42,141 nt of DNA, from contig JBBTWF010000005.1 of NCBI GenBank assembly GCA_038062875.1, positions 1 through 42,141 on the forward strand. The letters run 5' to 3'. This stretch comes from Patescibacteria group bacterium (GTDB lineage: Bacteria; Patescibacteriota; Minisyncoccia; UBA6257; UBA9933). How positions within the stretch are numbered: position 1 is the first letter of the stretch; each line of letters opens with the position of its first letter. Positions 1 through 11,603 of the stretch are shown piece after piece. The notes beneath the pieces are model-generated. The model had not been told where the DNA came from, made no database searches, and saw only the letters and a list, made by a program, of their open reading frames with translations. The position numbers were made by a program, and so were the translations under genes.

Positions 1-55
1 CGCCTCTGGCGAGCCTCGCCTCTGGCGGGGGTTTTGGGTTTTGGGTTAATAAAAT
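1..55. repeat. GC-rich repeat unit (cgcctctggcgagcctcgcctctggcggggg + ttttgggttttgggtt); copy 1, identical to 790..844
   Basis: Bases 1..55 are identical to 790..844 by direct reading. The unit contains the internal tandem cgcctctggcg x2. This copy supplies the stop codon of the 46..456 ORF. Confidence 0.8.
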
Positions 56-456
56 GGTCTTTTTCCTTCGGCGACATCAACGAGATAAGGCGGCTTAAAT
101 CCTCCTTTGAGCATTAAAAGATAAGCGATTATATCGGAATCCACCTGTCTGCCGAGATTATCAACAAAAAATGCTCTATCGCCGTCAGCGTCAAAAATAA
201 CGCCGAAGTCGGCTTTGTATTTATAAATTGCTGATTGCAAATTGATAATTGCTCCTTTTTTCAGCGGGTCAGGCCCGTGAGCCGGAAAATTGCCGTCTGG
301 GTTTCCGTTGATAATTTTCAATTTTAAATTTTCAATTTTCAATTGACGAACAATTAAACCGGCGGTGCCGTTTGAACAATCAAAAACTATTTTGAGTGGT
401 TTTGCCGGCTTTAAAAATTTTTTAAGAAAATTTACGTAAATTTTTATATAATTCAT
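46..456 (-). pseudogene. Phosphoglucomutase/phosphomannomutase family, domains II-III fragment. It is split from domain I at an ATGA overlap and truncated by the repeat copy at 1..55.
   Basis: Motifs LKIVFDCSNGTAG and GNFPAHGPDPL are typical of alpha-D-phosphohexomutase domains II/III. The ORF starts 4 nt inside the upstream domain-I ORF. No domain IV precedes the stop, which is supplied by the repeat. Confidence 0.6.
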
Positions 457-944
457 ATTAACTTTAAAATTTCTTTGCCGCTAATCGGCACGGCATTTCT
501 ACCAACCACTTTCAATCCATTATAGTTTTTCGGATTATGACTGGCTGTTATCATTATCCCGCCATCGGCGTTTAGTTTATTAACCAAAAAATAAAACATT
601 GGCGTTGTTGTCATTCCGACCGGAATAGTTTTTACCTGCCTGCCGGCAGGCAGGGCTTTTAAGTTTTTTCCGCCTAAGGCGGATCCGCCTCTGGCGGAAG
701 CTTTTAGTGATTTAAGAACGATTTTGTATAAACTTGACGAACTTAATCGAGCGTCGTGGCCGATTACAATTTTAGGTTTTGGGTTTTGCCGCCTCTGGCG
801 AGCCTCGCCTCTGGCGGGGGTTTTGGGTTTTGGGTTAATAAAATAACGTCCAAGAAAACGGCTGATTTTCTCAACCACTTCCTCATTTATTTCAAGCGGG
901 TATTTGCCCCGAATATCGTAGGCGCGAAAAATTTTAGGATTCAT
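453..944 (-). CDS. Phosphoglucomutase/phosphomannomutase domain I (active-site Ser loop TASHNP), carrying two in-frame repeat-derived insertions
   Basis: The sequence contains IFRAYDIRGKYP, GHDARLSS and ITASHNPKNYNGLK. The segments KPKTPARGEARQRRQNPKPK and ASARGGSALGGKN are translations of repeats 778..844 and 672..701. Confidence 0.75.
   Translation of the reverse strand: MNPKIFRAYDIRGKYPLEINEEVVEKISRFLGRYFINPKPKTPARGEARQRRQNPKPKIVIGHDARLSSSSLYKIVLKSLKASARGGSALGGKNLKALPAGRQVKTIPVGMTTTPMFYFLVNKLNADGGIMITASHNPKNYNGLKVVGRNAVPISGKEILKLI
672..701. repeat. GC-rich palindromic repeat gcctaaggcggatccgcctctggcggaagc, with a second copy at 24963..24993 inside xerC/D
   Basis: The core aggcggatccgcct is a perfect 14-bp palindrome. 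A near-identical copy lies inside the recombinase gene and is in-frame in both genes. Confidence 0.75.
778..844. repeat. GC-rich repeat, copy 2 (see 1..55), in-frame inside pmm domain I
   Basis: A 55/55 identity to 1..55 was read directly. It is flanked by gttttgggtttt motifs. Confidence 0.8.
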
Positions 945-957
945 CGTAAATAAATTA

Positions 958-1028
958 TATCATAAATCCCGCACCTTCCCAGAATACCCCGCGGGGTTTG
1001 ATACTCCGTGGGAAGGTGCGGGATAAAA
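958..1028. repeat. Inverted-repeat element with termini AAATCCCGCACCTTCCC / GGGAAGGTGCGGGAT and an internal CCCCGCGGGG palindrome
   Basis: A 15-bp perfect inverted repeat flanks a roughly 30-bp loop. The same terminal motif (aaatcccgcacc ... ggtgcgggat) bounds a second element at 38744..38842. Confidence 0.7.
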
Positions 1029-1030
1029 AC

Positions 1031-1055
1031 AAAAAACCGCCGAAAGGCGGTCGCG
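1031..1055 (-). terminator. Rho-independent terminator (stem accgcc/ggcggt, loop gaaa) after the AbiEii-like gene
   Basis: A GC hairpin is followed on the minus strand by tttttgtttttat, directly downstream of the stop at 1060. Confidence 0.6.
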
Positions 1056-1059
1056 GAAA

Positions 1060-1731
1060 CTACTTAAATACCTTGCCTGAAAGTTTTTCCGCCTCCTTAA
1101 TAAAAAATTCCTGCCACAGTTTTTCATCAAGTTTTTCCAACATTTGAGGATAATCTTTCAGTTCTTTCGCCTTTACATATTGAGCGCCGAGCTGGACGGG
1201 ATCAATATGGTTATCAAATTTTATTTGAGCCTTATCAACCAAAGAATTAATTGTTAATGTCGGATTATCTTTTAGAATCAAATAAAGATCGATAAAATCG
1301 CGGGAACGCGGATTTTGATAAATTGTAAATATCTTATTTGTAGCGATATCAATAAGACTGTCTATAAAAAGCTCGCCGATTTTCTGTTTCCGCTCTATGC
1401 GAGTAAAAGGAAAATAAGTAAATTCCGTCTTTATCACGCCAGTATCGGTGTAAAGAAAAAATAAATTCCTATTGAAGCTTTGCTGGTATTCTACCTTCTT
1501 GACGCCGGCGGCAGTTTGAATTTTCTTTAAAATAACCGAAACACTTTGCGGATCAAATTCTTGTTCGGAGAAAAAATCCAAATCTTCAGATAATCGGTGG
1601 TGGAGATAAAACTCTGCAAGCGCCGTGCCGCCAGTTAAATAGAAATAGGCGCAGATTGACTTCTCTTCAGAGAGAAGTTTTAGAAGTTTTTTCTGATTCT
1701 CAGAGAGAATTGAAGATTGATTTATTCTCAT
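1060..1731 (-). CDS. Nucleotidyltransferase of the AbiEii/DUF1814 family (candidate type IV toxin-antitoxin / abortive-infection toxin)
   Basis: The N-terminal YLTGGTALAEFYLHHRLSEDLDFF is characteristic of the AbiEii nucleotidyltransferase fold. The 4-nt ATGA overlap with the upstream small ORF is typical TA-operon architecture. Confidence 0.65.
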   Translation of the reverse strand: MRINQSSILSENQKKLLKLLSEEKSICAYFYLTGGTALAEFYLHHRLSEDLDFFSEQEFDPQSVSVILKKIQTAAGVKKVEYQQSFNRNLFFLYTDTGVIKTEFTYFPFTRIERKQKIGELFIDSLIDIATNKIFTIYQNPRSRDFIDLYLILKDNPTLTINSLVDKAQIKFDNHIDPVQLGAQYVKAKELKDYPQMLEKLDEKLWQEFFIKEAEKLSGKVFK

Positions 1732-1916
1732 ACAAAGAGAGATAAAAATTTTCTTTTAAAAGGGTCTATATTCACTGTGTCCCAATACTTTTGTAATTCA
1801 TTAATATCAATTTTTTCTTCTCCTAATCCAAAATTAATAAGCTGCTCAAGGCGCCAAATAGAAAATTTTTCCGGATTTTTTCGCAACTCCGAAATATCAG
1901 TAGACCAATTTTTCAT
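1728..1916 (-). CDS. Small 62-aa protein translationally coupled upstream of the AbiEii-like gene; a putative cognate antitoxin or regulator
   Basis: It overlaps the toxin start by 4 nt. No recognisable motif was found, and it is shorter than canonical AbiEi. Confidence 0.35.
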   Translation of the reverse strand: MKNWSTDISELRKNPEKFSIWRLEQLINFGLGEEKIDINELQKYWDTVNIDPFKRKFLSLFV

Positions 1917-1959
1917 AGTTTAATTATATCACAAAAATCAGATAATCACAAACTCAAAA

Positions 1960-2010
1960 TTTTATAATCGTCAAACTCAACGTCCATAAAGTCGGTGCGG
2001 ATGCCGGCGT
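1960..2010. repeat. 51-bp perfect direct repeat, copy 1 (copy 2 at 2311..2361)
   Basis: The sequence ttttataatcgtcaaactcaacgtccataaagtcggtgcggatgccggcgt occurs identically at both sites. The pair flanks a roughly 300-bp segment that carries a 75-aa ORF. Confidence 0.85.
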
Positions 2011-2027
2011 AGCCTTAAAATTTTTAT

Positions 2028-2255
2028 TTATAAATATCCTTTGTTTAAAAAAATTTGTTTTAAAAAATCTTTTTTATCGGTAAAAATAAATTTCGGCTCA
2101 TTTTGATATTTTTTAATGATTTTTTTTATAAAAGACCCTTTATATTCTCCTTCGGGATCTTTTAAAATAAGAAAGACAAGCTCTTTAAGAGTTCTTGTTT
2201 CTTCTTTTAACGCTTTGACTTCTTTATAAATTTTTTCCGCAGTTTGAATAGACAT
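2028..2255 (-). CDS. Hypothetical 75-aa Lys/Glu-rich protein lying between the 51-bp direct repeats
   Basis: This is an ORF only, with no recognisable family. It sits in a duplicated or rearranged segment. Confidence 0.3.
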   Translation of the reverse strand: MSIQTAEKIYKEVKALKEETRTLKELVFLILKDPEGEYKGSFIKKIIKKYQNEPKFIFTDKKDFLKQIFLNKGYL

Positions 2256-2296
2256 AATTTAATACTATATCAAGAATTAAAAATCGTCAATATCTT

Positions 2297-2485
2297 CTAA
2301 AACTTCACGATTTTATAATCGTCAAACTCAACGTCCATAAAGTCGGTGCGGATGCCGGCGTTTGAAGCATTTCTGTTGGAACTCGCGCTCATATTTAATT
2401 CCGTAATTTTGGAAACAGTTTCTTCGTTTATTTCGTTCGGGTATTTGCCCCGAATATCATAGGCGCGGAAGATATTGTTGTCCAT
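2297..2485 (-). pseudogene. Orphan duplicate of the pmm N-terminus (MDNNIFRAYDIRGKYPNEINEE...) followed by unrelated sequence
   Basis: The first roughly 35 aa and the DNA at 2385..2485 closely match 860..944 (the pmm start). The rest of the ORF is the translation of the 51-bp repeat. Confidence 0.6.
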
Positions 2486-2525
2486 TGATTGAATTTTAAC
2501 CTATTTTAGTGTTTAATTAAAGAAA

Positions 2526-4604
2526 ATGTCGCGCTCAAAAAAGAAAAAATTTCAAAACAAAAAACTTTCTGAAAAATTAGGAACCGAGACAGAGGACTCG
2601 CGGCTTCATCCGGAAACCAAAAAAAGCGTCTGGGCGATTGTGTTTTTGGGAATCGCGGTGATTTTTATTTTGGCCAGTTTTCAAAACGCCGGACCGGTCG
2701 GCAACTTTATTTACAAAATTTTTGAAAATTTGTTCGGATGGGGATATTATCTTTTACCGACTATATTTTTGATAATGGCAGGCGTTTTTTTAGCTTCGGA
2801 ACGACGCAAGATTTATCAAATCACATTTATTGGAGCGGTTCTTTTCGTTCTTTCCGGGCTGGGATTGATTGATATAATTTCCCAGAACAAAGGCGGGATA
2901 ATCGGCAATATTATCGGGTCTTTAGAAACCCCTTTCGGCTATACCGCTTCTATTGTGATTATTTCCACCATTCTCGTTGCTTCGCTCCTTATTACTCTTA
3001 ATCTTCCAATCAAAATCAGAAAACTAATAAAATCAGAAGAAAAAGACGAAGAAACCGAACCACTGAAAGTAAGCGGAGTCAACGCTAAGGAGGAAGAAGT
3101 AAAAATCCCGGAAGAAAAAGAAACTATTAAGGAAAAGGTCTCAGCGGCTATCGGGTTAAAACCCAAACAACTGAAAACTGAAAACTTTAGGCCTAAAACC
3201 GACTATATATTCCCTCCATTAGACCTTCTTAAATCGTCCATTGAAAAGCCAACATCCGGCGATTTAAGAGCGAACGCCAATATTATCAAAAGAACTTTGG
3301 AAAGCTTTGGTATCCCAGTTGAAATGGGAGAAATAAATATCGGGCCCAAAGTTACCCGCTTCACTCTCAAGCCCGCCGAAGGCGTTAAATTATCAAAAAT
3401 TCTGGCGCTAAATCAGGATTTGGCTTTGGCTCTGGCGGCGCACCCGATTAGAATTGAAGCGCCGATTCCCGGGAAATCGCTTGTTGGAATTGAAGTGCCG
3501 AATAAGGCCGCGGCTCTTGTCCGGCTCGGCAGTTTAATGGCTTATCCGGAATTCGTTGATTCCGGATTATTGGGCTTTGTTCTCGGAAGAGATGTCAGCG
3601 GCGAACCGATTTTCGCCAATATTGATAAAATGCCCCATCTTTTGATTGCCGGTAGCACCGGTTCCGGAAAATCAATATCCTTACACTCGCTCATTATTTC
3701 TCTTCTTTATAAAAATTCTCCTGAAACGTTAAAGCTCGCATTGATTGACCCGAAACGGGTGGAGCTTTCCATTTACGAAGGCATTCCTCATTTAGTCGCG
3801 CCAGTGGTTACTGAAACAAAAAAAGCGATCGGCGTCTTTAAGTGGGCGATTCAGGAAATGGAACGGCGCTATGAAATGCTTTTAGGAGCCGGCTGCCGCG
3901 ACATCAGCGCGTACAATAAAAAATTTCCCGATGAATCACTTCCTTATTTATTATTGGTAATTGACGAACTTGCCGACTTGATGACAAGTTATGGCCGAGA
4001 AGTTGAGGGTTCTATCGTACGCTTGGCGCAAATGGCTCGGGCTACAGGACTCCATTTAATCGTTTCCACTCAACGGCCTTCTGTGGAAATAATCACCGGA
4101 CTAATTAAAGCCAACATCACTTCAAGAATCGCCCTTCAAGTCCCAAGCCAAGTTGACTCAAGAACGATTCTTGACACATCTGGAGCTGAAAAATTGCTCG
4201 GCGGTGGCGACATGCTTTTCATCTCTTCGGACTTTTCAAAACCGAAAAGAATTCAAGGCGCTTATCTTTCCGAGGAGGAAATAAATAAAGTCGTTAATTT
4301 TATAAAAGAAAATAACAAAGAAATTGAGTCAGAAGAAATATTGCAATTCCCCGTTAACAATGGAGAAAACGGAGAAAATAATCATCTTGCTTTTGACGAT
4401 TATATTAAAAGCGACGATGAAGACGAACTGCTTGACGATGCGCTGAATATAGTAAAAGAGGCCAAAAAGGCATCCGCTTCCCTACTACAACGCCGATTGA
4501 AAATCGGCTATGCCCGAGCCGCCCGACTTCTTGATATAATGGAGGCCAAAGGATTAATCGGTCCAGGCGACGGAGCCAAACCAAGAGAAGTGTATATAGA
4601 ATAA
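2526..4604 (+). CDS. ftsK: DNA translocase FtsK/SpoIIIE
   Basis: The protein has N-terminal TM helices, a Walker A motif (LIAGSTGSGKS) and a C-terminal gamma (winged-helix) domain (LLQRRLKIGYARAARLLD). Confidence 0.95.
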   Translation: MSRSKKKKFQNKKLSEKLGTETEDSRLHPETKKSVWAIVFLGIAVIFILASFQNAGPVGNFIYKIFENLFGWGYYLLPTIFLIMAGVFLASERRKIYQITFIGAVLFVLSGLGLIDIISQNKGGIIGNIIGSLETPFGYTASIVIISTILVASLLITLNLPIKIRKLIKSEEKDEETEPLKVSGVNAKEEEVKIPEEKETIKEKVSAAIGLKPKQLKTENFRPKTDYIFPPLDLLKSSIEKPTSGDLRANANIIKRTLESFGIPVEMGEINIGPKVTRFTLKPAEGVKLSKILALNQDLALALAAHPIRIEAPIPGKSLVGIEVPNKAAALVRLGSLMAYPEFVDSGLLGFVLGRDVSGEPIFANIDKMPHLLIAGSTGSGKSISLHSLIISLLYKNSPETLKLALIDPKRVELSIYEGIPHLVAPVVTETKKAIGVFKWAIQEMERRYEMLLGAGCRDISAYNKKFPDESLPYLLLVIDELADLMTSYGREVEGSIVRLAQMARATGLHLIVSTQRPSVEIITGLIKANITSRIALQVPSQVDSRTILDTSGAEKLLGGGDMLFISSDFSKPKRIQGAYLSEEEINKVVNFIKENNKEIESEEILQFPVNNGENGENNHLAFDDYIKSDDEDELLDDALNIVKEAKKASASLLQRRLKIGYARAARLLDIMEAKGLIGPGDGAKPREVYIE

Positions 4605-4619
4605 AATTTCTAATTTCTA

Positions 4620-5255
4620 ATGAACAACGACCAGCCGAAAAATTTAACAGAGACGTTTCAAGAAGCGCTGGGTCTTCGCGGTTTGAATACTGAAAAATTA
4701 GCCGAACTAACTAATGTTCCTGAAATGTATATTTTGGCTCTTCGCGACGCTAATTTTGAAAAACTTCCGTCCGCTCCTTACGTCCGTGGCTATTTGATGA
4801 AAATCGCCGAAATTTTAAGAATTGACGGCGAAATGCTTTGGCAAACGTATAAAAACGAAAATATCAAAACCTCCGGCGCGAAAGACAAACTCCCTTCCAA
4901 TCGTTTTTTAATAAAGCCGTTGAAAAAAAAGATTTTCATTTTTGGTTTTATCGCGATTTTTGTTATAATTTATTTAATCTGGCAATCTGATAATTTTTTG
5001 GGAACGCCTAAAATTGAGATTATTAATCCAGCTTTTCCGACTGTTATCGTGAATGAACCAAATATGAAACTAAGCGGAGAAACCGACACTCAAAATAAAT
5101 TGACAATAAACAATGAAGAAATTTTTATCGGAAAAGACGGTCGATTTGAAAAAGAAATTTCTCTCCAGCCGGGCATCAATATTATTGAATTTAAAGCCAA
5201 AAAATTATTAGGCAAAGAAACAAAAGTCGTAAGACAAATAATGTACCAACCGTAG
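4620..5255 (+). CDS. rodZ: RodZ-like cytoskeleton protein (N-terminal HTH, single TM, C-terminal domain)
   Basis: It has an N-terminal XRE-type HTH (LAELTNVPEMYILALRDANFEKLPSAPYVRGYL), one TM helix and a C-terminal beta-rich domain. Confidence 0.6.
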   Translation: MNNDQPKNLTETFQEALGLRGLNTEKLAELTNVPEMYILALRDANFEKLPSAPYVRGYLMKIAEILRIDGEMLWQTYKNENIKTSGAKDKLPSNRFLIKPLKKKIFIFGFIAIFVIIYLIWQSDNFLGTPKIEIINPAFPTVIVNEPNMKLSGETDTQNKLTINNEEIFIGKDGRFEKEISLQPGINIIEFKAKKLLGKETKVVRQIMYQP

Positions 5256-5265
5256 CAATCACAGA

Positions 5266-5335
5266 ACTTAGGATTTAGAATATAGGATTTAGGGAATAAC
5301 CACCCCCTAAATTCTAACTCCTAAATTCTAAATTC
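5266..5335. repeat. Imperfect palindrome built from ttaggatttagaatataggatttagggaat units; a likely bidirectional terminator and member of the 'repeat C' family
   Basis: The left arm at 5266..5299 is the near reverse complement of 5305..5335. The same unit recurs in-frame inside folD at about 7297..7340. Confidence 0.65.
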
Positions 5336-5347
5336 TTGTCACATATT

Positions 5348-6349
5348 ATGACCAAACAAAAAGACGTTGAATCAAAACAAGATATTGATAAATTATTAGA
5401 ATCGTTGCAGGAAAAATTCGGCGAGGGCGCGATAATGAAATTGGGCGATATAAAAAAAGTTGACGTGGCGGCGATTTCCACCGGTTCGTTTTCGCTTGAC
5501 TTAGCTTTGGGAGTCGGAGGTTTTCCGCGCGGAAGAATAGTTGAAGTATTTGGCCCGGAAATGTCCGGAAAAAGCACTTTAGCGCTTCACGCCATTGCCG
5601 AAATCCAAAAACAAAACGGCAAAGCCGCTTATATCGACGCGGAACACGCCCTTGATCCGGAATACGCTAAAAAATTAGGCGTAAAAATCAACGACCTTTT
5701 AATTTCCCAGCCGGACAGCGGAGAAGAAGCGTTAAATATCGTGGAAAATCTGGTGCGTTCGGGAATGATTGACGTTATCGTGGTTGATTCGGTCGCGGCT
5801 CTTACTCCTCGAGCGGAAATTGAAGGAGAAATGGGCGCGCAATTCATCGGCTTGCAAGCCAGAATGATGAGCCAGGCCTTAAGAAAACTTACGGCTATTA
5901 CCGACAAAAATAATGTCTTAATAATATTTATCAACCAATTACGGGAAAAAATCGGAATGATGGGTTATGGCGAACCGACAACTACTCCGGGTGGCAGAGC
6001 GCTTAAATTTTATGCTTCAGTCAGAATTGATTTACGCAGAATCGCCCAAATAAAAAAAGGCGAAGATGTGGTTGGAAACCGCACTCGCGCGAAAGTTGTT
6101 AAAAATAAAGTTGCCCCGCCTTTTAAAATTGTGGAATTTGATATTATTTACGGCGAAGGCATTTCTTACGAAGGCGATATTCTGAATACGGCTCTTAAAT
6201 ACGGCGTTGTAACAAAATCCGGGAATACTTATAGTTTCGAGGGAGAAAAAATCGGCGTTGGAATGGAAGCGGCGAGAGAAAAATTAAAAGAAGATAAAAA
6301 ACTCCTTGGTGAAATAAAGAAAAAGGTCTTGACGGTTTTGAAAATTTAA
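5348..6349 (+). CDS. recA: Recombinase RecA
   Basis: The sequence contains [13 protein letters not shown] (Walker A), [19 protein letters not shown] and the L2 loop region. The ATG at 5348 is preferred over the TTG at 5336. Confidence 0.97.
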
Positions 6350-6397
6350 ATTACTCTTTAATTAGTCATTTAGAATAAATTTATAAAGGAGGTAGGG

Positions 6398-6568
6398 ATG
6401 ATTACTTTTTTGATAAAAATCATTTGCTGGCCGTTTGGTATTCTTCGCGCTTTGCTTTTTTGCTGTTTTGAATTAATTGAACGAGGGATATCAGAATTTT
6501 TCTGGCAGTATGACAAGTTGGATCTTGGCAACAAGCTGATGAGAAAACTATTTAGAAGGGGATTTTAA
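6398..6568 (+). CDS. Small 56-aa hydrophobic protein with a strong SD (AAAGGAGG, 7 nt before ATG)
   Basis: This ORF is not in the supplied track because it is under 60 aa. It has an RBS and a downstream intrinsic terminator. Confidence 0.4.
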   Translation: MITFLIKIICWPFGILRALLFCCFELIERGISEFFWQYDKLDLGNKLMRKLFRRGF

Positions 6569-6582
6569 ACCCCTTCTTTTTT
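6555..6582. terminator. Bidirectional rho-independent terminator (gaagggg-N8-ccccttc + T6)
   Basis: The hairpin and T tract were read directly. It lies between the small ORF and the convergent dgkA stop. Confidence 0.7.
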
Positions 6583-6589
6583 ACAAATT

Positions 6590-6934
6590 TTACAAATATG
6601 GCAGAAAAATTACTAAACCAATAATCGCGGCACCGATACTGACAACCAAAACAACTGCCGCCATTAGGTCTTTAATTATTTTTACTTGTCCGTTGGGAAA
6701 CGGATGAATAAAATCCAAAAGCCGCTCAATAATGGAATTAATAAGCTCTAAAATCAGGACAGAAAAAATCATCAATAGAAGCGCTACCTTTTTAATTCGC
6801 GAAGTTGGAAAATAAAACATCGTTGCCACCACTAAAAAAGCGGTAATAAACATTATTTTAAAACTTCTTTCCTCCAATAAGGTATCTTTAAGACCACTAA
6901 AAGCGGCTATAAAACTATTTTTTAATTTTCGCAT
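6590..6934 (-). CDS. dgkA: Diacylglycerol/undecaprenol kinase family (DgkA)
   Basis: It is a 3-TM protein of about 114 aa with an ELINSxIExxxD motif. Confidence 0.75.
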   Translation of the reverse strand: MRKLKNSFIAAFSGLKDTLLEERSFKIMFITAFLVVATMFYFPTSRIKKVALLLMIFSVLILELINSIIERLLDFIHPFPNGQVKIIKDLMAAVVLVVSIGAAIIGLVIFLPYL

Positions 6935-7770
6935 AATTTATAAAAATTCTCAAAAAGTTTGGCTACCAGTATTGGGCCGGTGCCGCCGGGGGTTGGAGTG
7001 TAAAAATCAGCTTTTAGCTTTGAGTTTTTAGCTTTTAGAGACTCAACATCGAAATCACCGTGAATTTTTCCGTTTTCATCAATAAAATAACCAAAATCAA
7101 TTATTCCTGCGTCGTCTTTTAACATCTCCGGTTTTATAATTCCGGCTTGACCAACGCCAGAAATAACTAAGTCAAAGTTTTTTAACTCCAATAAATCGCT
7201 CCCCTTTCCAAAAATCGCTAATTCTTTCACTTTATCCATCAGCCAAACCGCAATCGGTTTGCCGATTAAAAAACCCGCGCCGACAACGGCTACTTTTTTA
7301 GAATTTAGAATATAGGATTGAGAATTTAGGGAATTTAAGATTTCTTCTACTGTTGCTACCGCTGGTGGTAGCACGAAATTTCTATTGTTATAAAAAGCCC
7401 CCAACGCTCGCTCGCCTAAAACATCAACGTCTTTTTCGCGAGGAATAACGTTGAGAATATAATGCTTATTAATATGTTCCGGCAACGGCAACTGAACAAT
7501 CACTCCCCCGACTCTTTTTAATAAAGCGATTTTGCCGGCTTCTTTTCTTAAATCGTCGTTTTTGATTCCGCCAGCTGGCGGATTCGGAAATTTGTAAATT
7601 CTAAAATCAACGCCCAATTCCTTGGCGACTTTTTCTTTTTGTTTTAAAAAACTTGAAGACGCCGGATTTTCTCCGACCAAAATTACCGCCAAGAATTTTT
7701 TAGGAATTTGTTGCTGTTTTAAATTATCAATAATTTTTTTGGCTATTTCGGCGCCGGAAATTTTTTGCAT
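6922..7770 (-). CDS. folD: Bifunctional methylenetetrahydrofolate dehydrogenase/cyclohydrolase FolD
   Basis: It contains GGVIVQLPLP, YTPTPGGTGP and a Rossmann GAG motif, and carries two small in-frame repeat insertions. Confidence 0.93.
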   Translation of the reverse strand: MQKISGAEIAKKIIDNLKQQQIPKKFLAVILVGENPASSSFLKQKEKVAKELGVDFRIYKFPNPPAGGIKNDDLRKEAGKIALLKRVGGVIVQLPLPEHINKHYILNVIPREKDVDVLGERALGAFYNNRNFVLPPAVATVEEILNSLNSQSYILNSKKVAVVGAGFLIGKPIAVWLMDKVKELAIFGKGSDLLELKNFDLVISGVGQAGIIKPEMLKDDAGIIDFGYFIDENGKIHGDFDVESLKAKNSKLKADFYTPTPGGTGPILVAKLFENFYKLCEN

Positions 7771-8972
7771 AATTTTTCAACTTCTTTTTTGATTAATGCC
7801 GAATTTCCGTTTTTAATTAAAATCCTGAAAATCCAATCTGCGATTTGACGCATTTCTTTTTCTTTCATTCCGCGAGTAGTTAGAGCTGGAGTGCCGAGCC
7901 GCAATCCTGAAGGCCTGAAAGGACTGGCGTCGCCGGGCACTGAATTTCGGTTAGCTAAAATGCCGGCTGTTTCCAGTTTCTTCTCCGCTTCAAAACCATT
8001 GCCTCCAAGATTGATTAATATTAAATGATTGTCAGTGCCTCCGGCGACTAAATCAAAGCCGTATTTTTTTAATGATTTTGCCAACGCTTGAGCATTTTTA
8101 ATAACTTGTTTCTGATATTTTTTAAATGACTGCTTTTTTGTTTCAAAAAACATTTCCGCGATGGCGGCAATCGTATTATTGTGAGGCCCGCCTTGCATGC
8201 CCGGAAAAACCGCTCTGTCAATTTTATCAGCTAATTCTCTTTTACAAAAAATTATCGCGGCTCGCGGACCGCGTAAAATTTTATGAGTCGTTGTCATCAC
8301 CACATCACTGTAAGGAAACGGAGACTGATGAAGTCCGGCGACAACCAAACCAGAAATATGCGAAATATCAACCATATGATAAGCCCCGACTTTTTTAGCT
8401 ATTTCGCCGAATTTTTTGAAATCAATTTTTCGCGGGTAAGCGGTCGCGCCGGAAACGATAATTTTCGGCTTATGTTTTTTCGCCAATCGCTCAACTTCTT
8501 TGTAGTCAATCAATCCGGTCTTTTTATCAACTCCGTATTGAATCGTTTTATAAACGACGCCGGAAAAATTCACTTTATGGCCGTGCGTTAAATGCCCGCC
8601 GTTGGTCAATTCCATTCCCATTAAAACATCTCCGAAATTGAGTAAGGCAAAATAAATTTCCAGATTAGCCGGCGAGCCGGAATACGGCTGGACATTTACT
8701 GACCAGCTTTTAGCTTTTAGCTTAAAAGCTTTTAGAGCGCGCTCTTGCGCCAAATTCTCAATCTCATCGTAATATTGGTTTCCGGGATAATAACGCCTGC
8801 CTTCCGCTGCGTATCCTTCGGAATATTTATTCATCAACGGAGAACCGACGATTTTTAAAATTTCCGGAGAAGCGAAATTTTCCGAAGCGATTAAATTAAT
8901 CGTTTTTTGCTGACGATTGATTTCTTTTTTAATTAAATTATTCAAAATTTTATCTTTCACTGAATTTATCAT
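7743..8972 (-). CDS. glyA: Serine hydroxymethyltransferase
   Basis: The PLP-site motif TTTHKILRGPR, VNVQPYSG and overall collinearity identify it. Confidence 0.95.
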   Translation of the reverse strand: MINSVKDKILNNLIKKEINRQQKTINLIASENFASPEILKIVGSPLMNKYSEGYAAEGRRYYPGNQYYDEIENLAQERALKAFKLKAKSWSVNVQPYSGSPANLEIYFALLNFGDVLMGMELTNGGHLTHGHKVNFSGVVYKTIQYGVDKKTGLIDYKEVERLAKKHKPKIIVSGATAYPRKIDFKKFGEIAKKVGAYHMVDISHISGLVVAGLHQSPFPYSDVVMTTTHKILRGPRAAIIFCKRELADKIDRAVFPGMQGGPHNNTIAAIAEMFFETKKQSFKKYQKQVIKNAQALAKSLKKYGFDLVAGGTDNHLILINLGGNGFEAEKKLETAGILANRNSVPGDASPFRPSGLRLGTPALTTRGMKEKEMRQIADWIFRILIKNGNSALIKKEVEKLCKKFPAPK

Positions 8973-9000
8973 AATGAAAATCCGTCAAAAATCAAACATA

Positions 9001-9045
9001 ACGACAACAAAAAGAGTCCCGTCGGGACTCTTTTTGTTGCTTTTT
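9001..9045. terminator. Bidirectional intrinsic terminator (agagtccc-gtcg-ggactct) flanked by T/A tracts
   Basis: A perfect 8-bp stem has T runs on both sides. It lies between the glyA start region and the 9064 stop. Confidence 0.65.
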
Positions 9046-9063
9046 TCGCCTGTGGCGAAAAAT

Positions 9064-9741
9064 TTATTCGGTTCCTCTTTTGAGTTTTTCCATCAAGGAA
9101 GCTGCGTAGTCCTTTCCGCCTAAACCGAAAGCAATACCGCCGGCCAAAGCGATCATCGCGATTAAGCCGGTAATTAATGTGTTAATAATAGTAACGGCAA
9201 TACCAAGCTGAGTTAAAGCGGTAAGAAGACCGAAAACTACTACTGACCACCAAGTAAGGGTTCCCAAAAATTTTGAGGCATGTAATTTAGAAGCAGTTAC
9301 TGAAGCCGTAACTAACGACCTCAAGAAACTCCCAAGCACCACTGTCGCCAACATTATCAAGACGGCGATAATAATATTCGGAATATAAAGCAAAACATCG
9401 CTCAAAAAACCTGAAAGCGCCCAAAATCCTAAAATATCAGAAGCCGCCAAAATAAAGGCGAATACTAAAAACCAATAAATTAAACGTCCCAAAAATCTAC
9501 CAGTGTTTATCTGGAGACCGGCTCGTTCAAAATACGGGCTCAAACGAATCTTTCTAAGAAGCGCGTCGATTTTAACAGCGCTAATCAATCGTTCAACTAA
9601 AGAACCCAATGCTGTCGCTACCACCAAACCAATAATAATTATTATTAATGCTCCGATGAGCGACGGCAAAAAACCAGCTACTGTCCCCCAAAGATTTTGG
9701 AGCGAGCTTACAACTATGTCTGTCCAATTTTGAATTGTCAT
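9064..9741 (-). CDS. Polytopic membrane protein with repeated conserved-TM-helix segments (MscS-associated TM_helix-like); function unknown
   Basis: Hydrophobic helices repeat with an A/G/L-rich pattern. The assignment is weak. Confidence 0.4.
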   Translation of the reverse strand: MTIQNWTDIVVSSLQNLWGTVAGFLPSLIGALIIIIIGLVVATALGSLVERLISAVKIDALLRKIRLSPYFERAGLQINTGRFLGRLIYWFLVFAFILAASDILGFWALSGFLSDVLLYIPNIIIAVLIMLATVVLGSFLRSLVTASVTASKLHASKFLGTLTWWSVVVFGLLTALTQLGIAVTIINTLITGLIAMIALAGGIAFGLGGKDYAASLMEKLKRGTE

Positions 9742-9761
9742 AATATTTAACTATATTCTCG

Positions 9762-9777
9762 CGAAATTTCGCGATAA
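9762..9777. promoter_or_regulatory. Perfect 16-bp palindrome TCGCGAAATTTCGCGA in the promoter region of the 9064..9741 gene; a candidate operator
   Basis: It was read directly and lies about 20 bp upstream of the minus-strand start codon at 9741. Confidence 0.35.
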
Positions 9778-9869
9778 GCTATCATATTCGACCTTTTAAA
9801 ATTATTCTTTCTAACTCTATAATTATAACGCAAAATCAAAAAAAACGCATTTACAACTGTGGATAACTG

Positions 9870-9941
9870 TGGGCGCAGGAGGGATCGGACCTCCGACCTC
9901 TTCGATGTCAACGAAACGCTCTACCACTGAGCTATGCGCCC
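9870..9941 (-). tRNA. tRNA-Val (anticodon GAC)
   Basis: It folds manually as a cloverleaf: acceptor GGGCGCA/TGCGCCC, D arm GCTC-AGTGGTA-GAGC, anticodon loop TTGACAT. Confidence 0.85.
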
Positions 9942-9946
9942 AAATA

Positions 9947-10018
9947 TGGGCAGTGTAGGAATCGAACCTACGACCTTCTCGGTGTAAACGAGACATTCTG
10001 CCATTGAACTAACTGCCC
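9947..10018 (-). tRNA. tRNA-Val (anticodon TAC)
   Basis: Manual fold: acceptor GGGCAGT/ACTGCCC, anticodon stem TCTCG/CGAGA, loop TTTACAC, T loop TTCGATT. Confidence 0.8.
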
Positions 10019-10624
10019 CTATATTTCTTTTTTTATATCTTTTTTAAGTGTCCTTCTTAAGGCGTCTTCAAAAACAATAATAACTAAAATAAAAACAGAA
10101 ATAAAGATGGCTGCGGTTTTTATGTCTTGATGGAGAATATTGGTTTTATGGGCGAAAATATAACCCAAAGAAACAAAAGTAATTGACCAAATCAAAGAAG
10201 CCGGAACGCTGTATGATAATAATTTTTTAAACGGAGTTTTCATATAGCCGCTGGCGACTAAAACCACTCTGTTTAAATTCCAAACGAATTTTGAAATAAA
10301 AATATAAAGGCCATTTCCTCTTTTTAACGATTCAAGAAAACCGATAATTTTCTCCAATTTAAAAAACAGAAACTTTCCTTTCGGGGCCGCGTTTCCTCCG
10401 AAACGAGCCGCTATTTTTCTGCCGATGCCCCAATAAATCAAATCGTGAATCACGGCGGCTATAAAAGAGAAAAAAATTATGTCAAAAAAATCAAGATAGC
10501 CGTTACGGCTTAAAACGCCGGCTAAAACAAGAACAATTTCTCCTTCAATCAAAATACCGATGAAAATAATCAAATAAGCGAGTATTCGATGGGTTTCGGA
10601 AAAATCCATTAAAAATGATTGCAT
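10019..10624 (-). CDS. DedA/VTT-domain family membrane protein
   Basis: The N-terminal GILIEGEIVLVLAG and the following G-rich segment fit the DedA pattern. Confidence 0.7.
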   Translation of the reverse strand: MQSFLMDFSETHRILAYLIIFIGILIEGEIVLVLAGVLSRNGYLDFFDIIFFSFIAAVIHDLIYWGIGRKIAARFGGNAAPKGKFLFFKLEKIIGFLESLKRGNGLYIFISKFVWNLNRVVLVASGYMKTPFKKLLSYSVPASLIWSITFVSLGYIFAHKTNILHQDIKTAAIFISVFILVIIVFEDALRRTLKKDIKKEI

Positions 10625-10640
10625 ATTTTGTTTCTCCTTT

Positions 10641-11603
10641 TTATTTCTCCGCTTTTATTTTATTCAAAATCTTTTTCACTTTTTCCAAACTGTCATCGTC
10701 AAGAATAGAGATAGGGGAAGCGTTCTTATTTATTTTTTTCAGGATGGCAATTTTCTTCTTTATTTCTTCACGGGAAAACATATCGCTCTTGCTTAAAAAT
10801 ACATATTCGGTTTTTTCAATAAGTTCCTTACTGTATGTCCCAAGCTCATTTTTAATTATTTTATAGTCCTTTGTAAGATTTTCCGATTCCGCGGAAATTA
10901 AATGAAAAAGAATTTTCACGCGTTCAATGTGGCGAAGAAATTTTACTCCTAAGCCCTTGCCGACTGACGCACCTTCAATCAATCCGGGAATATCCGCGAG
11001 GATAAGTTCGTAATATGTTCCCAAATTCGGCTCCAAAGTGGTAAAAGGATAATTCGCAACCCTACTTTTCGCTTCCGTAAGTTCGTTTAATAAACTGGAT
11101 TTCCCCGCGTTAGGCAAACCGATAAGACCCACATCCGCGATAAGTTTAAGTTCAAGCTTCAAAGTAAAATGTTCGCCTGGGAGACCAGTTTGAAATTGTT
11201 TTGGAGAAGTATTTTTTGAAGAGCGAAAATGAAAATTTCCTTTTCCTCCGATTCCGCCCTTCGCGATAAGAATTTTTTCGTTGATTTTTAATATCTCTCC
11301 AGTTTCATTCGTTTCAATTTTGCGGATTATCGTTCCAACCGGAACTTTTAATATAAGGTCTCCTCCGTCAGGACCATCATTAAATTGGTCTCTTCCGTTT
11401 ACGCCGTCCTTTGCTTTGATTTCTTTTTTATATCTGAATTGACCCAAAGCGCTTAAGTCGGAAACGCCTTCAAAATAAATACTGCCGCCTTTGCCGCCAC
11501 TTCCGCCGGTCGGTCCCAAGCTCATCATATTTTTATTAAAAGACACGGCGCCTTTTCCGCCGTTTCCGGCGCTTACTTTAATTGTTACGTCGTCGATTAA
11601 CAT
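10641..11603 (-). CDS. obg: GTPase Obg/CgtA
   Basis: It has a Gly-rich N-terminal Obg fold, GLIGLPNAGKSSLLN (G1) and DIPGLIEGA (G3). Confidence 0.95.
   Translation of the reverse strand: MLIDDVTIKVSAGNGGKGAVSFNKNMMSLGPTGGSGGKGGSIYFEGVSDLSALGQFRYKKEIKAKDGVNGRDQFNDGPDGGDLILKVPVGTIIRKIETNETGEILKINEKILIAKGGIGGKGNFHFRSSKNTSPKQFQTGLPGEHFTLKLELKLIADVGLIGLPNAGKSSLLNELTEAKSRVANYPFTTLEPNLGTYYELILADIPGLIEGASVGKGLGVKFLRHIERVKILFHLISAESENLTKDYKIIKNELGTYSKELIEKTEYVFLSKSDMFSREEIKKKIAILKKINKNASPISILDDDSLEKVKKILNKIKAEK

What the first reader, a model, noticed from the sequence alone, without database searches (positions are those of the whole stretch)
944..2500. Rearranged pmm locus: split pmm, orphan duplicated pmm 5' end, 51-bp perfect direct repeats, and an inserted AbiEii-type toxin module
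The main pmm copy (944 down to 46) is split at an ATGA overlap (453..456) between domain I and domains II-III, and ends at a repeat-derived stop. A second pmm start (2485 down to 2385, MDNNIFRAYDIRGKYPNEINEE) duplicates about 100 bp of the first (860..944) and then decays. Between them lie an AbiEii/DUF1814 nucleotidyltransferase gene with a coupled 62-aa upstream ORF, and a 75-aa ORF bracketed by 51-bp identical direct repeats (1960..2010 and 2311..2361). This looks like insertion of a defence or addiction module accompanied by a target or partial gene duplication. I cannot tell from the sequence whether pmm is still functional.
Basis: partly seen in the sequence, partly recalled or inferred. 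Interest (0 to 1): 0.55.

Follow-up and report, generated by a model that had tools for sequence, protein, structure and literature searches.

The report
Naturally split pmm with inserted toxin cassettes
The two-piece sugar-phosphate mutase gene is not broken: it is an old, conserved two-gene form found across a large group of tiny (Patescibacteria) bacteria. In this genome, mobile toxin-antitoxin cassettes have landed at its start and left the old gene start stranded, and the apparent truncation is a contig-end artefact.

Summary

1. **The split is ancestral.** The domain I | domains II-IV split at the ATGA (453..456) occurs at the same residue in nine other Patescibacteria lineages. Their junctions differ: 1-, 4- and 13-nt overlaps, 20- and 57-nt gaps, and once an intervening gene. 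All catalytic motifs are intact.

2. **The "repeat-derived stop" is a contig-end artefact.** Window 1-55 is an exact copy of 790-844. A 75.7-kb contig, identical from base 48 onward, continues the ORF to 316 aa with domains II-IV.

3. **The orphan pmm start (2485..~2399) is the resident 5' end.** It lies 40 bp from ftsK, as in relatives that lack the insert.

4. **The insert (945..2398) is a patchwork:**
   - a mobile 62-aa + AbiEii cassette (~1060..1959), 84-87% DNA-identical to copies at other loci in other genomes;
   - an orphan DUF2683-like antitoxin gene whose RelE-like toxin is gone;
   - two copies of the 3' end of an unrelated gene, which are the 51-bp repeats.

The present pmm start and promoter probably arrived with the insert. 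The locus shows ordinary cassette traffic, but I found no published description of the conserved split mutase.

The parts
1..55 (.). Exact copy of 790-844 at the contig start. Bases 1-47 are absent from this position in the longer contig, so this is an assembly-end chimera or the junction of a 789-bp tandem duplication. It creates the false stop at 46-48.
   Evidence: (D4)
48..456 (-). 5' 136 codons of pmmC, the domains II-IV subunit. It is cut by the contig end; the full gene is 316 aa in L001:10489-11439. It carries the metal-binding motif DADGDR. EHSGH and RLSNTE lie beyond the window.
453..944 (-). pmmI, the domain I subunit (163 aa) with the catalytic-serine motif TASHNP. Its stop overlaps the pmmC start (ATGA at 453-456).
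635..700 (.). In-frame GC-rich insert 2 in pmmI (SARGGSALGGKNLKALPAGRQ), made of CGCC-NNN-GGCG / CCTGCCGGCAGG mini-hairpins. It is absent from relatives and from solved PGMs.
789..846 (.). In-frame GC-rich insert 1 in pmmI (NPKPKTPARGEARQRRQNPKPK): two CGCCTCTGGCG hairpins flanked by AAAACCCAAAACC direct repeats.
945..1059 (-). Spacer that arrived with the insert. It holds a terminator-like hairpin (1052..1035), a 59-nt perfect-stem hairpin (1024..966) and an extended -10 (TGATATAAT, 962..954) 10 nt upstream of the pmmI ATG. It is unrelated to the ancestral ftsK-pmm spacer.
   Evidence: (I7); no Rfam family
1060..1731 (-). AbiEii/DUF1814 nucleotidyltransferase toxin gene (223 aa). The GGTAL and SEDLD motifs are readable in the sequence.
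1728..1916 (-). 62-aa partner ORF, translationally coupled to AbiEii. It is conserved with AbiEii in seven other loci and matches no known family.
1060..1959 (-). Extent of the mobile two-gene cassette, defined by 84-87% DNA identity to L091, L092 and L107-L111 (different loci and genomes). It includes its own promoter (TTGTGA-17-TATAAT, 1951..1923).
1954..2016 (-). Repeat copy 2: the last 19 codons plus stop of a gene of the '..GYAGIRTDFMDVEFDDYKI' family. This is the longer remnant, as it keeps the GY codons at 2016..2011.
2018..2281 (-). Orphan DUF2683-like small gene (ORF 2255..2028, 75 aa) with its promoter. It is 74% DNA-identical to L095, where the homologue is followed at once by a RelE/YoeB-like toxin gene. 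That toxin is missing here.
2305..2361 (-). Repeat copy 1 of the same gene 3' end. It is read in frame as the C-terminus of the 62-aa fusion ORF 2485..2297.
2362..2398 (-). 37 bp of unknown origin between the pmm' remnant and repeat copy 1.
2399..2485 (-). pmm': the resident (ancestral) first ~29 codons of pmmI (MDNNIFRAYDIRGKYPNEINEETVSKITE).
2486..2525 (.). Ancestral divergent ftsK-pmm spacer: 40 bp, about 36 of 40 identical to relative L005.
2526..4604 (+). ftsK, the syntenic anchor (78% aa identity to L005).

Best explanation
This is a Patescibacteria (Parcubacteria-type) chromosome.

**The split gene.** Its phosphomannomutase/phosphoglucomutase is encoded, as in a large clade of relatives, by two genes. 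pmmI is domain I with the phosphoserine. pmmC is domains II-IV with the metal, sugar and phosphate loops. The two are usually translationally coupled and presumably assemble into a two-chain enzyme. The break sits where unsplit relatives have a variable 15-50-aa linker.

**The ancestral layout.** pmmI starts 40 bp from the divergently transcribed ftsK.

**The insertion.** In this lineage about 1.45 kb of foreign DNA (945..2398) has been recombined in after codon ~29 of the resident pmmI. It contains:
- a 37-bp scrap;
- a 3'-end fragment of an unrelated gene;
- an orphan DUF2683-like antitoxin gene whose RelE-like toxin has been deleted;
- a second copy of the same 3'-end fragment;
- an intact, widely travelling 62-aa + AbiEii cassette with its own promoter and terminator;
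- a hairpin and a new promoter.

**How pmm stayed whole (inferred).** The incoming DNA also carried a pmm 5' end. This happened either by Campbell-type or short-patch crossover in the conserved FRAYDIRGKYP-coding stretch, or by homology-facilitated illegitimate recombination that replaced pmm from a donor. As a result the working pmm stayed complete, and the resident 5' end was left as a 62-aa fusion ORF.

**The truncation.** The apparent truncation of pmmC at the window start is an assembly-end artefact.

**Shown versus inferred.** Shown: the conserved split, intact motifs, the ancestral position of pmm', the cassette boundaries and mobility, the origin of the repeats and the artefact. Inferred: the two-chain enzyme, TA activity and the recombination route.
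For: **Conserved split**
- 98 of the best 120 homologue clusters are 293-374-aa proteins that lack domain I and cover 62-68% of the fused query. They are 43-55% identical and named Wolfebacteria, Brennerbacteria, Paceibacterota or Patescibacteria.
- All 17 aligned pmmC proteins begin at or within three residues of the same point, with Y7, F10 and L11 invariant.
- Nine lineages examined have a separate pmmI ORF ending ..SGxEIxKL.. and a pmmC ORF:

| Locus | pmmI/pmmC junction |
|---|---|
| L005 | 1-nt overlap |
| L007-9 | ATGA |
| L100 | ATGA |
| L098 | 13-nt overlap |
| L096 | 20-nt gap |
| L102/L104 | 57-nt gap |
| L010 | a RibD_C gene in between |

- Unsplit relatives have a variable linker exactly at the break.
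- The motifs TASHNP, DADGDR, EHSGH and RLSNTE are present.

**Artefact:**

**Ancestral position of pmm'**
- The spacer to ftsK is 40 bp against 39 bp in L005 and about 90% identical. The start MDNN.. resembles L005 MDN...
- No other lineage has such a remnant.

**The present 5' end is foreign**
- The first 18 nt match pmm' at 10 positions, then 29 of 30, then 22 of 39 (read).
- The upstream 115 bp are unrelated to the ancestral spacer.

**Mobile cassette**
- 84-87% DNA identity over 1060..1959 to seven loci with different neighbours.
- AbiEii homologues at 80-89% aa identity occur in more than 50 clusters, whereas FtsK of the nearest relative is 78% identical.

**Repeats:** the encoded peptide is the conserved C-terminus of 30+ proteins or fragments.

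**Orphan antitoxin:**
Against: - No experiment or structure shows that pmmI and pmmC associate or are active.
- About 23 residues at the domain I/II junction are missing compared with solved PGMs.
- The recombination route is not resolved. pmmI and pmmC are nearest to L005 in only about 60% of bootstrap resamples, against 100% for FtsK and HTH_25. This fits either a replaced pmm or simply a fast-evolving one.
- The near-identical 30-nt core is also conserved at synonymous sites in distant L010, so it is weak evidence for a crossover point.
- No closely related genome that lacks the insert, or that carries a donor-like arrangement, was found.
- Only one homologue of the 75-aa gene was seen next to a RelE-like gene.
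- The 62-aa partner has no detectable similarity to AbiEi or to any known fold.
Confidence: 0.8

Rival explanations
1. One reading: pmm was hit by a frameshift at 453..456 and truncated by a repeat, so the locus carries a decaying pseudogene produced by the module insertion.
For: - Two ORFs where most bacteria have one, and an in-window stop inside a repeat copy.
- Three GC-rich inserts in the gene.
Against: - The same split is found in nine other lineages at 46-62% pmmC identity, with different junction architectures and intact motifs.
- The stop is absent from a longer contig that is identical from base 48.
- The inserts are in frame and fall in loops that vary among relatives.
Confidence: 0.03
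2. The cassette DNA was inserted with an in-situ duplication of the first ~90 bp of pmm (a long target duplication). The left copy then decayed.
For: - Both copies are about equally similar to L005 at the protein level (78% and 84%).
- A 30-nt core is 97% identical between them.
Against: - The differences are not spread as decay would spread them: 10 of 18, then 29 of 30, then 22 of 39 positions match.
- It is the left copy that keeps the relative-like MDN start and the ancestral spacer. The functional right copy has a different start (MNPK) and an unrelated upstream region.
- The 51-bp repeats in the same insert are still identical, so the insert is young relative to about 30% divergence.
Confidence: 0.12
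3. The 51-bp direct repeats are recombination sites of a cassette system (integron-like or att-like). The system captured the 75-aa gene and the AbiEii pair one after the other.
For: - Each repeat copy ends just upstream of a separately mobile cassette: the exact part of copy 2 ends at 1960, where homology to L107 begins, and copy 1 ends about 24-30 nt before the homology to L095 begins.
- Toxin-antitoxin cassettes are typical cargo of such arrays (my own knowledge).
Against: - There are only two copies.
- The same cassettes in L091, L092, L095 and L107-L111 are not preceded by this sequence.
- The sequence is the in-frame, conserved C-terminal coding end of a protein family.
- No integrase or recombinase gene is nearby.
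Confidence: 0.1
4. The duplicated pmm start and the module are assembly chimeras.
For: The window itself begins with a chimeric-looking 55-mer.
Against: - The same arrangement is found in a 75.7-kb contig of another assembly, in 5 further long contigs and in Logan assemblies of two other runs.
- The two pmm starts are only 79% identical, so an assembler would not confuse them.
Confidence: 0.02

Closest known systems
Bacterial PMM/PGM of the alpha-D-phosphohexomutase superfamily (Xanthomonas citri PGM, PDB 5BMN; Pseudomonas aeruginosa AlgC, PDB 1K35)
   Same: - The same four Pfam domains in the same order.
- The phosphoserine loop TASHNP, the metal loop DxDxDR, the sugar loop ExSGH and the phosphate loop RxSNTE are all present.
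- phmmer E=1.7e-43 and 5.8e-36 for the conceptually fused protein.
   Different: - It is encoded as two polypeptides, broken between domains I and II.
- About 23 residues at that junction are missing.
- There are three lineage-specific GC-rich in-frame inserts.
- I found no paper describing a split form, although the searchable library is incomplete.
AbiE type IV toxin-antitoxin / abortive-infection system (AbiEi + AbiEii) and the mycobacterial MenA/MenT pairs. The comparison rests on my own knowledge of Dy et al. 2014 and Cai et al. 2020.
   Same: - The downstream gene is a DUF1814/AbiEii nucleotidyltransferase with the GG[ST] and [ST]xDxD motifs.
- It forms a two-gene operon with an overlapping stop and start.
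- It is horizontally mobile.
   Different: - The upstream partner is only 62 aa, all-helical in a low-confidence model.
- It has no similarity to AbiEi or its winged-helix and C-terminal domains in Pfam, NCBIfam, PADLOC or a PDB fold search.
Type II RelE/YoeB-family toxin-antitoxin pairs with a small upstream antitoxin
   Same: The 75-aa ORF belongs to a family of ~70-aa proteins: 69 representative clusters, and 15 of 26 members match Pfam DUF2683. Its closest homologue (71% identical) is followed directly by a RelE/YoeB-like ORF.
   Different: There is no toxin gene here. Homology to the pair stops about 10 nt past the antitoxin stop, where the repeat begins.
Homology-facilitated illegitimate recombination / Campbell-type integration of foreign DNA that carries a fragment of the target gene (my own knowledge)
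   Same: The architecture matches: a truncated resident 5' end, then foreign DNA, then a complete gene whose extreme 5' end and promoter differ from the resident ones.
   Different: The route is inferred from one end state only. No donor, circular form or sister strain was observed.

Membership tests
alpha-D-phosphohexomutase (PMM/PGM) | Four domains, PGM_PMM_I to IV, in order | tested here: met
   Domain I is in ORF 944..453 (E=2.8e-30). Domain II is in ORF 456.. (E=9e-19). Domains II, III and IV (weak) are in the full 316-aa ORF of L001.
alpha-D-phosphohexomutase (PMM/PGM) | Catalytic phosphoserine loop (T/S)ASHNP, metal loop DxDxDR, sugar loop (G)ExSGH and phosphate loop RxS(N/G)TE | tested here: met
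   ITASHNPK, FDADGDR, AEHSGH and RLSNTE were read. They are invariant or nearly so in the 17-sequence alignment A1.
alpha-D-phosphohexomutase (PMM/PGM) | A single polypeptide carrying all four domains | tested here: not met
   There are two ORFs in different frames with an ATGA overlap. The same break occurs in nine other lineages.
alpha-D-phosphohexomutase (PMM/PGM) | Mutase activity and substrate (mannose, glucose or glucosamine phosphate) | not testable with these tools
   All NCBIfam hits are far below the equivalog cut-offs.
AbiE (AbiEi/AbiEii) type IV TA / Abi system | AbiEii DUF1814 nucleotidyltransferase toxin | tested here: met
   PF08843 scores 62.7 bits against a cut-off of 22.5. 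There are 22 PADLOC AbiEii models. GGTAL and SEDLD can be read in the sequence.
AbiE (AbiEi/AbiEii) type IV TA / Abi system | An upstream AbiEi antitoxin with an N-terminal winged helix and a C-terminal antitoxicity domain (~200-300 aa) | tested here: not met
   The partner is 62 aa. It has no Pfam, NCBIfam or PADLOC hit, and its low-confidence helical model has no fold match.
AbiE (AbiEi/AbiEii) type IV TA / Abi system | Growth arrest by the toxin, neutralisation by the partner, phage abortive infection | not testable with these tools
   -
Type II RelE/ParE-family TA pair (for the 75-aa ORF) | An antitoxin gene immediately followed by a RelE-fold toxin gene | tested here: not met
   The toxin is present next to homologue P0278 in L095 (YoeB_toxin E=3.6e-5, HigB-like E=2.6e-4). 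It is absent in the window: only 17 bp separate the ORF stop from the repeat.
Transposon / IS insertion with target-site duplication | A transposase gene, terminal inverted repeats and short identical target duplications at the insert boundaries | tested here: not met
   There is no transposase-like ORF in 945..2398. No inverted repeat brackets the insert. The 'duplicated' pmm ends are only 79% identical.
Integron-like cassette array | An integrase gene plus attC-type imperfect palindromes separating the cassettes | tested here: inconclusive
   No integrase is found within 10 kb. The repeats are a coding 3' end. attC-like folding of the 51-mer was not examined.

The most novel reading that the evidence does not exclude
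A large Patescibacteria clade makes its only PMM/PGM-type phosphohexomutase as an obligate heterodimer. The catalytic phosphoserine domain is a free ~130-160-aa subunit that docks onto a domains II-IV subunit. This natural fission of an enzyme has been maintained across clade-level divergence (46-62% pmmC identity among the lineages examined), and even tolerates another gene between the halves (L010). The mechanism of such enzymes depends on inter-domain closure and a 180-degree flip of the bisphosphate intermediate. The arrangement could allow regulated assembly, or sharing of the phosphoserine subunit.
Probability: 0.6. Interest if true: 0.5.

Novelty: new variant of a known kind. Interest (0 to 1): 0.33.

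Why it matters
For annotation:
- Split pmm genes in Patescibacteria MAGs should not be called frameshifted pseudogenes, nor used as evidence that the sugar-nucleotide pathway is missing in these reduced genomes.
- The first 55 bases of this contig should not be interpreted biologically.

For enzymology, a naturally split phosphohexomutase offers a ready-made system for asking how domain I contributes to the open/closed cycle.

For genome dynamics, the locus is a clean example of toxin-antitoxin cassettes being recombined into the 5' end of an essential-pathway gene without inactivating it. The incoming DNA supplied a replacement 5' end and promoter, and a dated 'fossil' of the old start was left behind. 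The ftsK-pmm spacer has also been hit independently in another lineage (the HEPN/MNT pair in L010).

Tried and rejected
- **Genome-contig scan.** I used the pmmC alignment as the query. The scan was useless for synteny.
- **Metagenome-contig scan.** A search for the ftsK-pmm spacer (29-nt pattern) gave 0 hits. The second scan, with the neighbouring HTH_25 protein, gave 11 loci at 46-56% identity. These were good for showing the split, but none was a close strain.
- **Rfam.** Over 1-3000 at E<=1, only sub-threshold chance matches appeared. There was no family for the 966-1024 hairpin.
- **Structure of the 62-aa partner.** AlphaFold2 without an alignment gave pLDDT 66.7, and Foldseek against the PDB gave nothing below E=6. 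No conclusion can be drawn.
- **Profile of the 75-aa family against the PDB.** Only coiled-coil noise.
- **Phylogeny.** An NJ bootstrap in Biopython timed out. I replaced it with a nearest-neighbour bootstrap, which could not decide whether pmm was replaced by a foreign copy.
- **Repeat at the window start as a mobile element.** I considered that it might be an independent insertion of a mobile mini-element. I rejected this because the copy includes 13 nt of unique pmmI coding flank.
- **A second pmm/pgm in the window.** None was found apart from the remnant.


Full report
**1. What is in the sequence**

| Element | Coordinates (minus strand) | Evidence |
|---|---|---|
| 163-aa ORF | 944..453 | PGM_PMM_I, E=2.8e-30 |
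| 136-aa ORF, overlapping the first by ATGA | 456..46 | PGM_PMM_II, E=9e-19 |
| 223-aa ORF | 1731..1060 | AbiEii, E=6.6e-17, above Pfam's cut-off; 22 PADLOC AbiEii models |
| 62-aa ORF, overlapping AbiEii by ATGA | 1916..1728 | |
| 75-aa ORF | 2255..2028 | |
| 62-aa ORF starting MDNNIFRAYDIRGKYP | 2485..2297 | |

The direct repeats are 1954-2010 and 2305-2361. They are 57 nt at 96% identity, with 51 nt exact. The two pmm starts share 79% identity over 71 nt.

**2. The truncation is an artefact of the contig end**

- The repeat finder also shows that window 1-55 is an exact copy of 790-844 (D4).
- The exact-protein look-up found the same locus inside a 75.7-kb contig of another assembly (GCA_964356485.1; L001).
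- That contig is 100% identical to window 48..10944 but not to bases 1-47. In it the second pmm ORF continues to 316 aa and carries domains II, III and IV.
- The two sequences share only AATAAAAT at the switch point.
- The copied 55-mer contains unique pmmI coding sequence. It is therefore a chimeric end, or the junction of a 789-bp tandem duplication present in some cells. It is not a repeat element that truncates the gene.
- The 55-nt length matches a common assembler k-mer size (my own knowledge). Reads would be needed to decide between the two possibilities.

**3. The split is ancestral and conserved**

- A database search with the conceptually fused protein returned 120 best clusters. Of these, 98 lack domain I, are 293-374 aa long and cover 62-68% of the query, at 43-55% identity. 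The named ones are Wolfebacteria, Brennerbacteria, Paceibacterota or 'Patescibacteria group'.
- Only 22 clusters carry domain I, for example Harrisonbacteria at 45% identity.
- In an alignment of 17 such proteins, all begin at or within three residues of the same point, M-N-Y-x-x-x-Y-x-x-F-L-K-K (A1).
- The genomic contexts show a separate domain I ORF every time:

| Locus | pmmI (aa) | pmmC (aa) | Junction |
|---|---|---|---|
| L005 | 161 | 300 | TAATG, 1-nt overlap |
| L007-L009 | 133 | 296 | ATGA |
| L100 | - | - | ATGA |
| L098 | - | - | 13-nt overlap |
| L096 | - | - | 20-nt gap |
| L102/L104 | - | - | 57-nt gap, same frame with a stop |
| L010 | 141 | 323 | a RibD_C gene between the halves |

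- Unsplit relatives have a poorly conserved 15-50-aa linker exactly at the break.
- Both halves keep the signature loops: ITASHNP in pmmI, and FDADGDR, AEHSGH and RLSNTE in pmmC. The closest solved structures are X. citri PGM and P. aeruginosa PMM/PGM.
The most likely function is a two-chain phosphohexomutase. That is an inference, and no assay exists.
- I found no paper describing it, but the searchable library is partial.

**4. The ancestral layout and the orphan start**

- In L005, L007-9, L096, L098 and L100, ftsK and pmmI are divergent neighbours with only a short intergenic spacer and nothing between them.
- L005 is the nearest relative: FtsK 78%, RecA 83% and HTH_25 72% identical. It is nearest in 998-1000 of 1000 resamples.
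- In L005 the spacer is 39 bp and about 90% identical to window 2486-2525, and pmmI starts MDNIFRAYDIRGKYPDEINEKIVEKITQFLGRYF.
- The window's orphan ORF starts 40 bp from ftsK with MDNNIFRAYDIRGKYPNEINEETVSKITE, and then leaves pmm homology at about 2399.
- It is therefore the resident 5' end, cut after codon ~29. No other lineage has such a remnant.

**5. The present pmm start is not a copy of it**

- Reading the two DNA sequences side by side gives the following matches: the first 18 nt at 10 positions, the next 30 nt (coding RAYDIRGKYP) at 29, and the next 39 nt at 22.
- The 115 bp upstream of the present start (945-1059) are unrelated to the ancestral spacer. They contain a terminator-like hairpin, a 59-nt perfect-stem hairpin (z=-5.2; no Rfam family) and an extended -10.
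- The present start MNPK resembles L007 (MDPK) and L102 (MNPD) rather than L005.
- I conclude that the incoming DNA brought its own pmm 5' end and promoter.
- There are two possible routes:
  - a crossover in the conserved core (Campbell-type or short patch);
  - a replacement of pmm further downstream (homology-facilitated illegitimate recombination).
- These could not be separated. pmmI and pmmC are nearest to L005 in only about 60% of resamples, and the same core is conserved at synonymous sites in distant L010.

**6. The insert is a patchwork**

(a) The AbiEii cassette
- Window ~1060..1941-1959 is 84-87% identical at the DNA level to seven loci from other samples. Their neighbours all differ: downstream of rplL, next to a DNA methylase, next to beta-CASP/lactamase genes, and next to a LAGLIDADG gene.
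- In each one the 62-aa ORF precedes AbiEii.
- AbiEii homologues at 80-89% aa identity fill more than 50 clusters. Hits at 77-80% are labelled Sungbacteria and Omnitrophica. This is more conserved than FtsK between this organism and its nearest relative.
- The cassette is thus a mobile two-gene unit.
- The partner is not an AbiEi by any test I could run. The system is therefore AbiEii-like in its toxin, but it fails the AbiE membership test on the antitoxin.

(b) The 75-aa ORF
- It is a real gene family: 69 representative clusters at E<=1e-3, all about 70 aa, with an invariant D-x-E-G-x-Y motif. 15 of 26 members match Pfam DUF2683.
- Its closest homologue (71% identical) is followed at once by a RelE/YoeB-like ORF.
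- In the window, homology (2281..2018) ends about 10 nt past the stop, and the toxin is missing. The ORF is an orphan antitoxin-position gene.

(c) The 51-bp repeats
- They encode (GY)AGIRTDFMDVEFDDYKI. This is the conserved C-terminus of 30-odd Patescibacteria proteins and fragments, of the pattern ..DDGKxYGGxAILxEGYAGIRTDFMDVEFDDYKI... The family has no Pfam match.
- Copy 2 keeps two more codons (GY).
- Each copy ends just upstream of a cassette. The exact part of copy 2 ends at 1960, where homology to L107 starts; copy 1 ends about 24-30 nt before the homology to L095 starts.
- The same cassettes elsewhere are not preceded by this sequence.
- The repeats are therefore duplicated scraps of a gene's 3' end, carried along in earlier recombination events. 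They are not target-site duplications.
- An att-like role cannot be excluded, but nothing supports it.

**7. Hot spot**

L010 has an unrelated HEPN + nucleotidyltransferase pair and a 217-aa ORF between ftsK and pmmI. The same spacer has therefore been used independently by another toxin-antitoxin module.

**8. Verdict**

- It is wrong about the split, the truncation, the nature of the repeats and the 'duplication'.
- pmm is most probably functional.
- The locus itself is ordinary cassette traffic in a reduced genome.
- The one feature of wider interest is the conserved two-gene phosphohexomutase, together with the GC-rich in-frame hairpin inserts noted below.

Noticed in passing
window 635-700 and 789-846; L001:11013-11070 (the part of pmmC beyond the window start): pmm carries three in-frame GC-rich inserts built from tandem CGCC-NNN-GGCG mini-hairpins. 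They encode NPKPKTPARGEARQRRQNPKPK, SARGGSALGGKNLKALPAGRQ and GGSASRRRRGSPLAAGGK. Eight of the ten such motifs in 20 kb lie in the 1.44-kb pmm pair. They appear as gaps against relatives and solved structures. On the antisense strand they score as intrinsic terminators. Insert 1 is flanked by AAAACCCAAAACC direct repeats. Other Parcubacteria pmm genes have different GC-rich peptide inserts (P0041, P0056, the P0002 linker). This recalls Rickettsia palindromic elements inside genes (my own knowledge), but it was not pursued.
   Followed up: partly
window 966-1024 (minus strand): A 59-nt hairpin with a perfect 16-bp outer stem and a nested CCCCGCGGGG stem lies between the AbiEii terminator and the pmmI promoter. 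The 146-nt region folds at -56 kcal/mol, z=-5.2. It is a single copy in the window and has no Rfam family. Its function is unknown; it could be an insulator or terminator, or a regulatory element for pmm.
   Followed up: partly
L010:5053-6972: In GCA_041643315.1 a RibD_C-domain gene (173 aa) sits between pmmI and pmmC, overlapping the pmmC start by 4 nt. The two halves are therefore separable genes in that lineage.
   Followed up: no
L010:3063-4706: A HEPN + NTP_transf_2 (MNT-like) toxin-antitoxin pair and a 217-aa ORF occupy the ftsK-pmmI spacer in another lineage. This is an independent insertion at the same place.
   Followed up: no
window 1954-2016 and 2305-2361; proteins P0242-P0277: The peptide GYAGIRTDFMDVEFDDYKI is the strongly conserved C-terminus of an uncharacterised Patescibacteria protein family with no Pfam match. 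In public data the family is mostly seen as short ORF fragments of 36-96 aa, including remnants inside long contigs such as L094. Why its 3' end survives so often as a fragment is unexplained.
   Followed up: partly
window 2297-2485 (minus strand): The resident pmm promoter and start now drive a 62-aa chimeric ORF. It consists of 29 codons of pmm, 13 codons of unknown origin and 20 codons of the other gene's C-terminus, read in its native frame to its own stop region. It is annotated as a hypothetical protein in NCBI (P0241).
   Followed up: no
L091 and L092 (ENA ERZ1286166): These contigs show many fragmented ORFs (for example rplL and beta-CASP genes split into pieces). This is typical of uncorrected long-read assemblies, so ORF calls there should not be taken as real gene fissions.
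   Followed up: no
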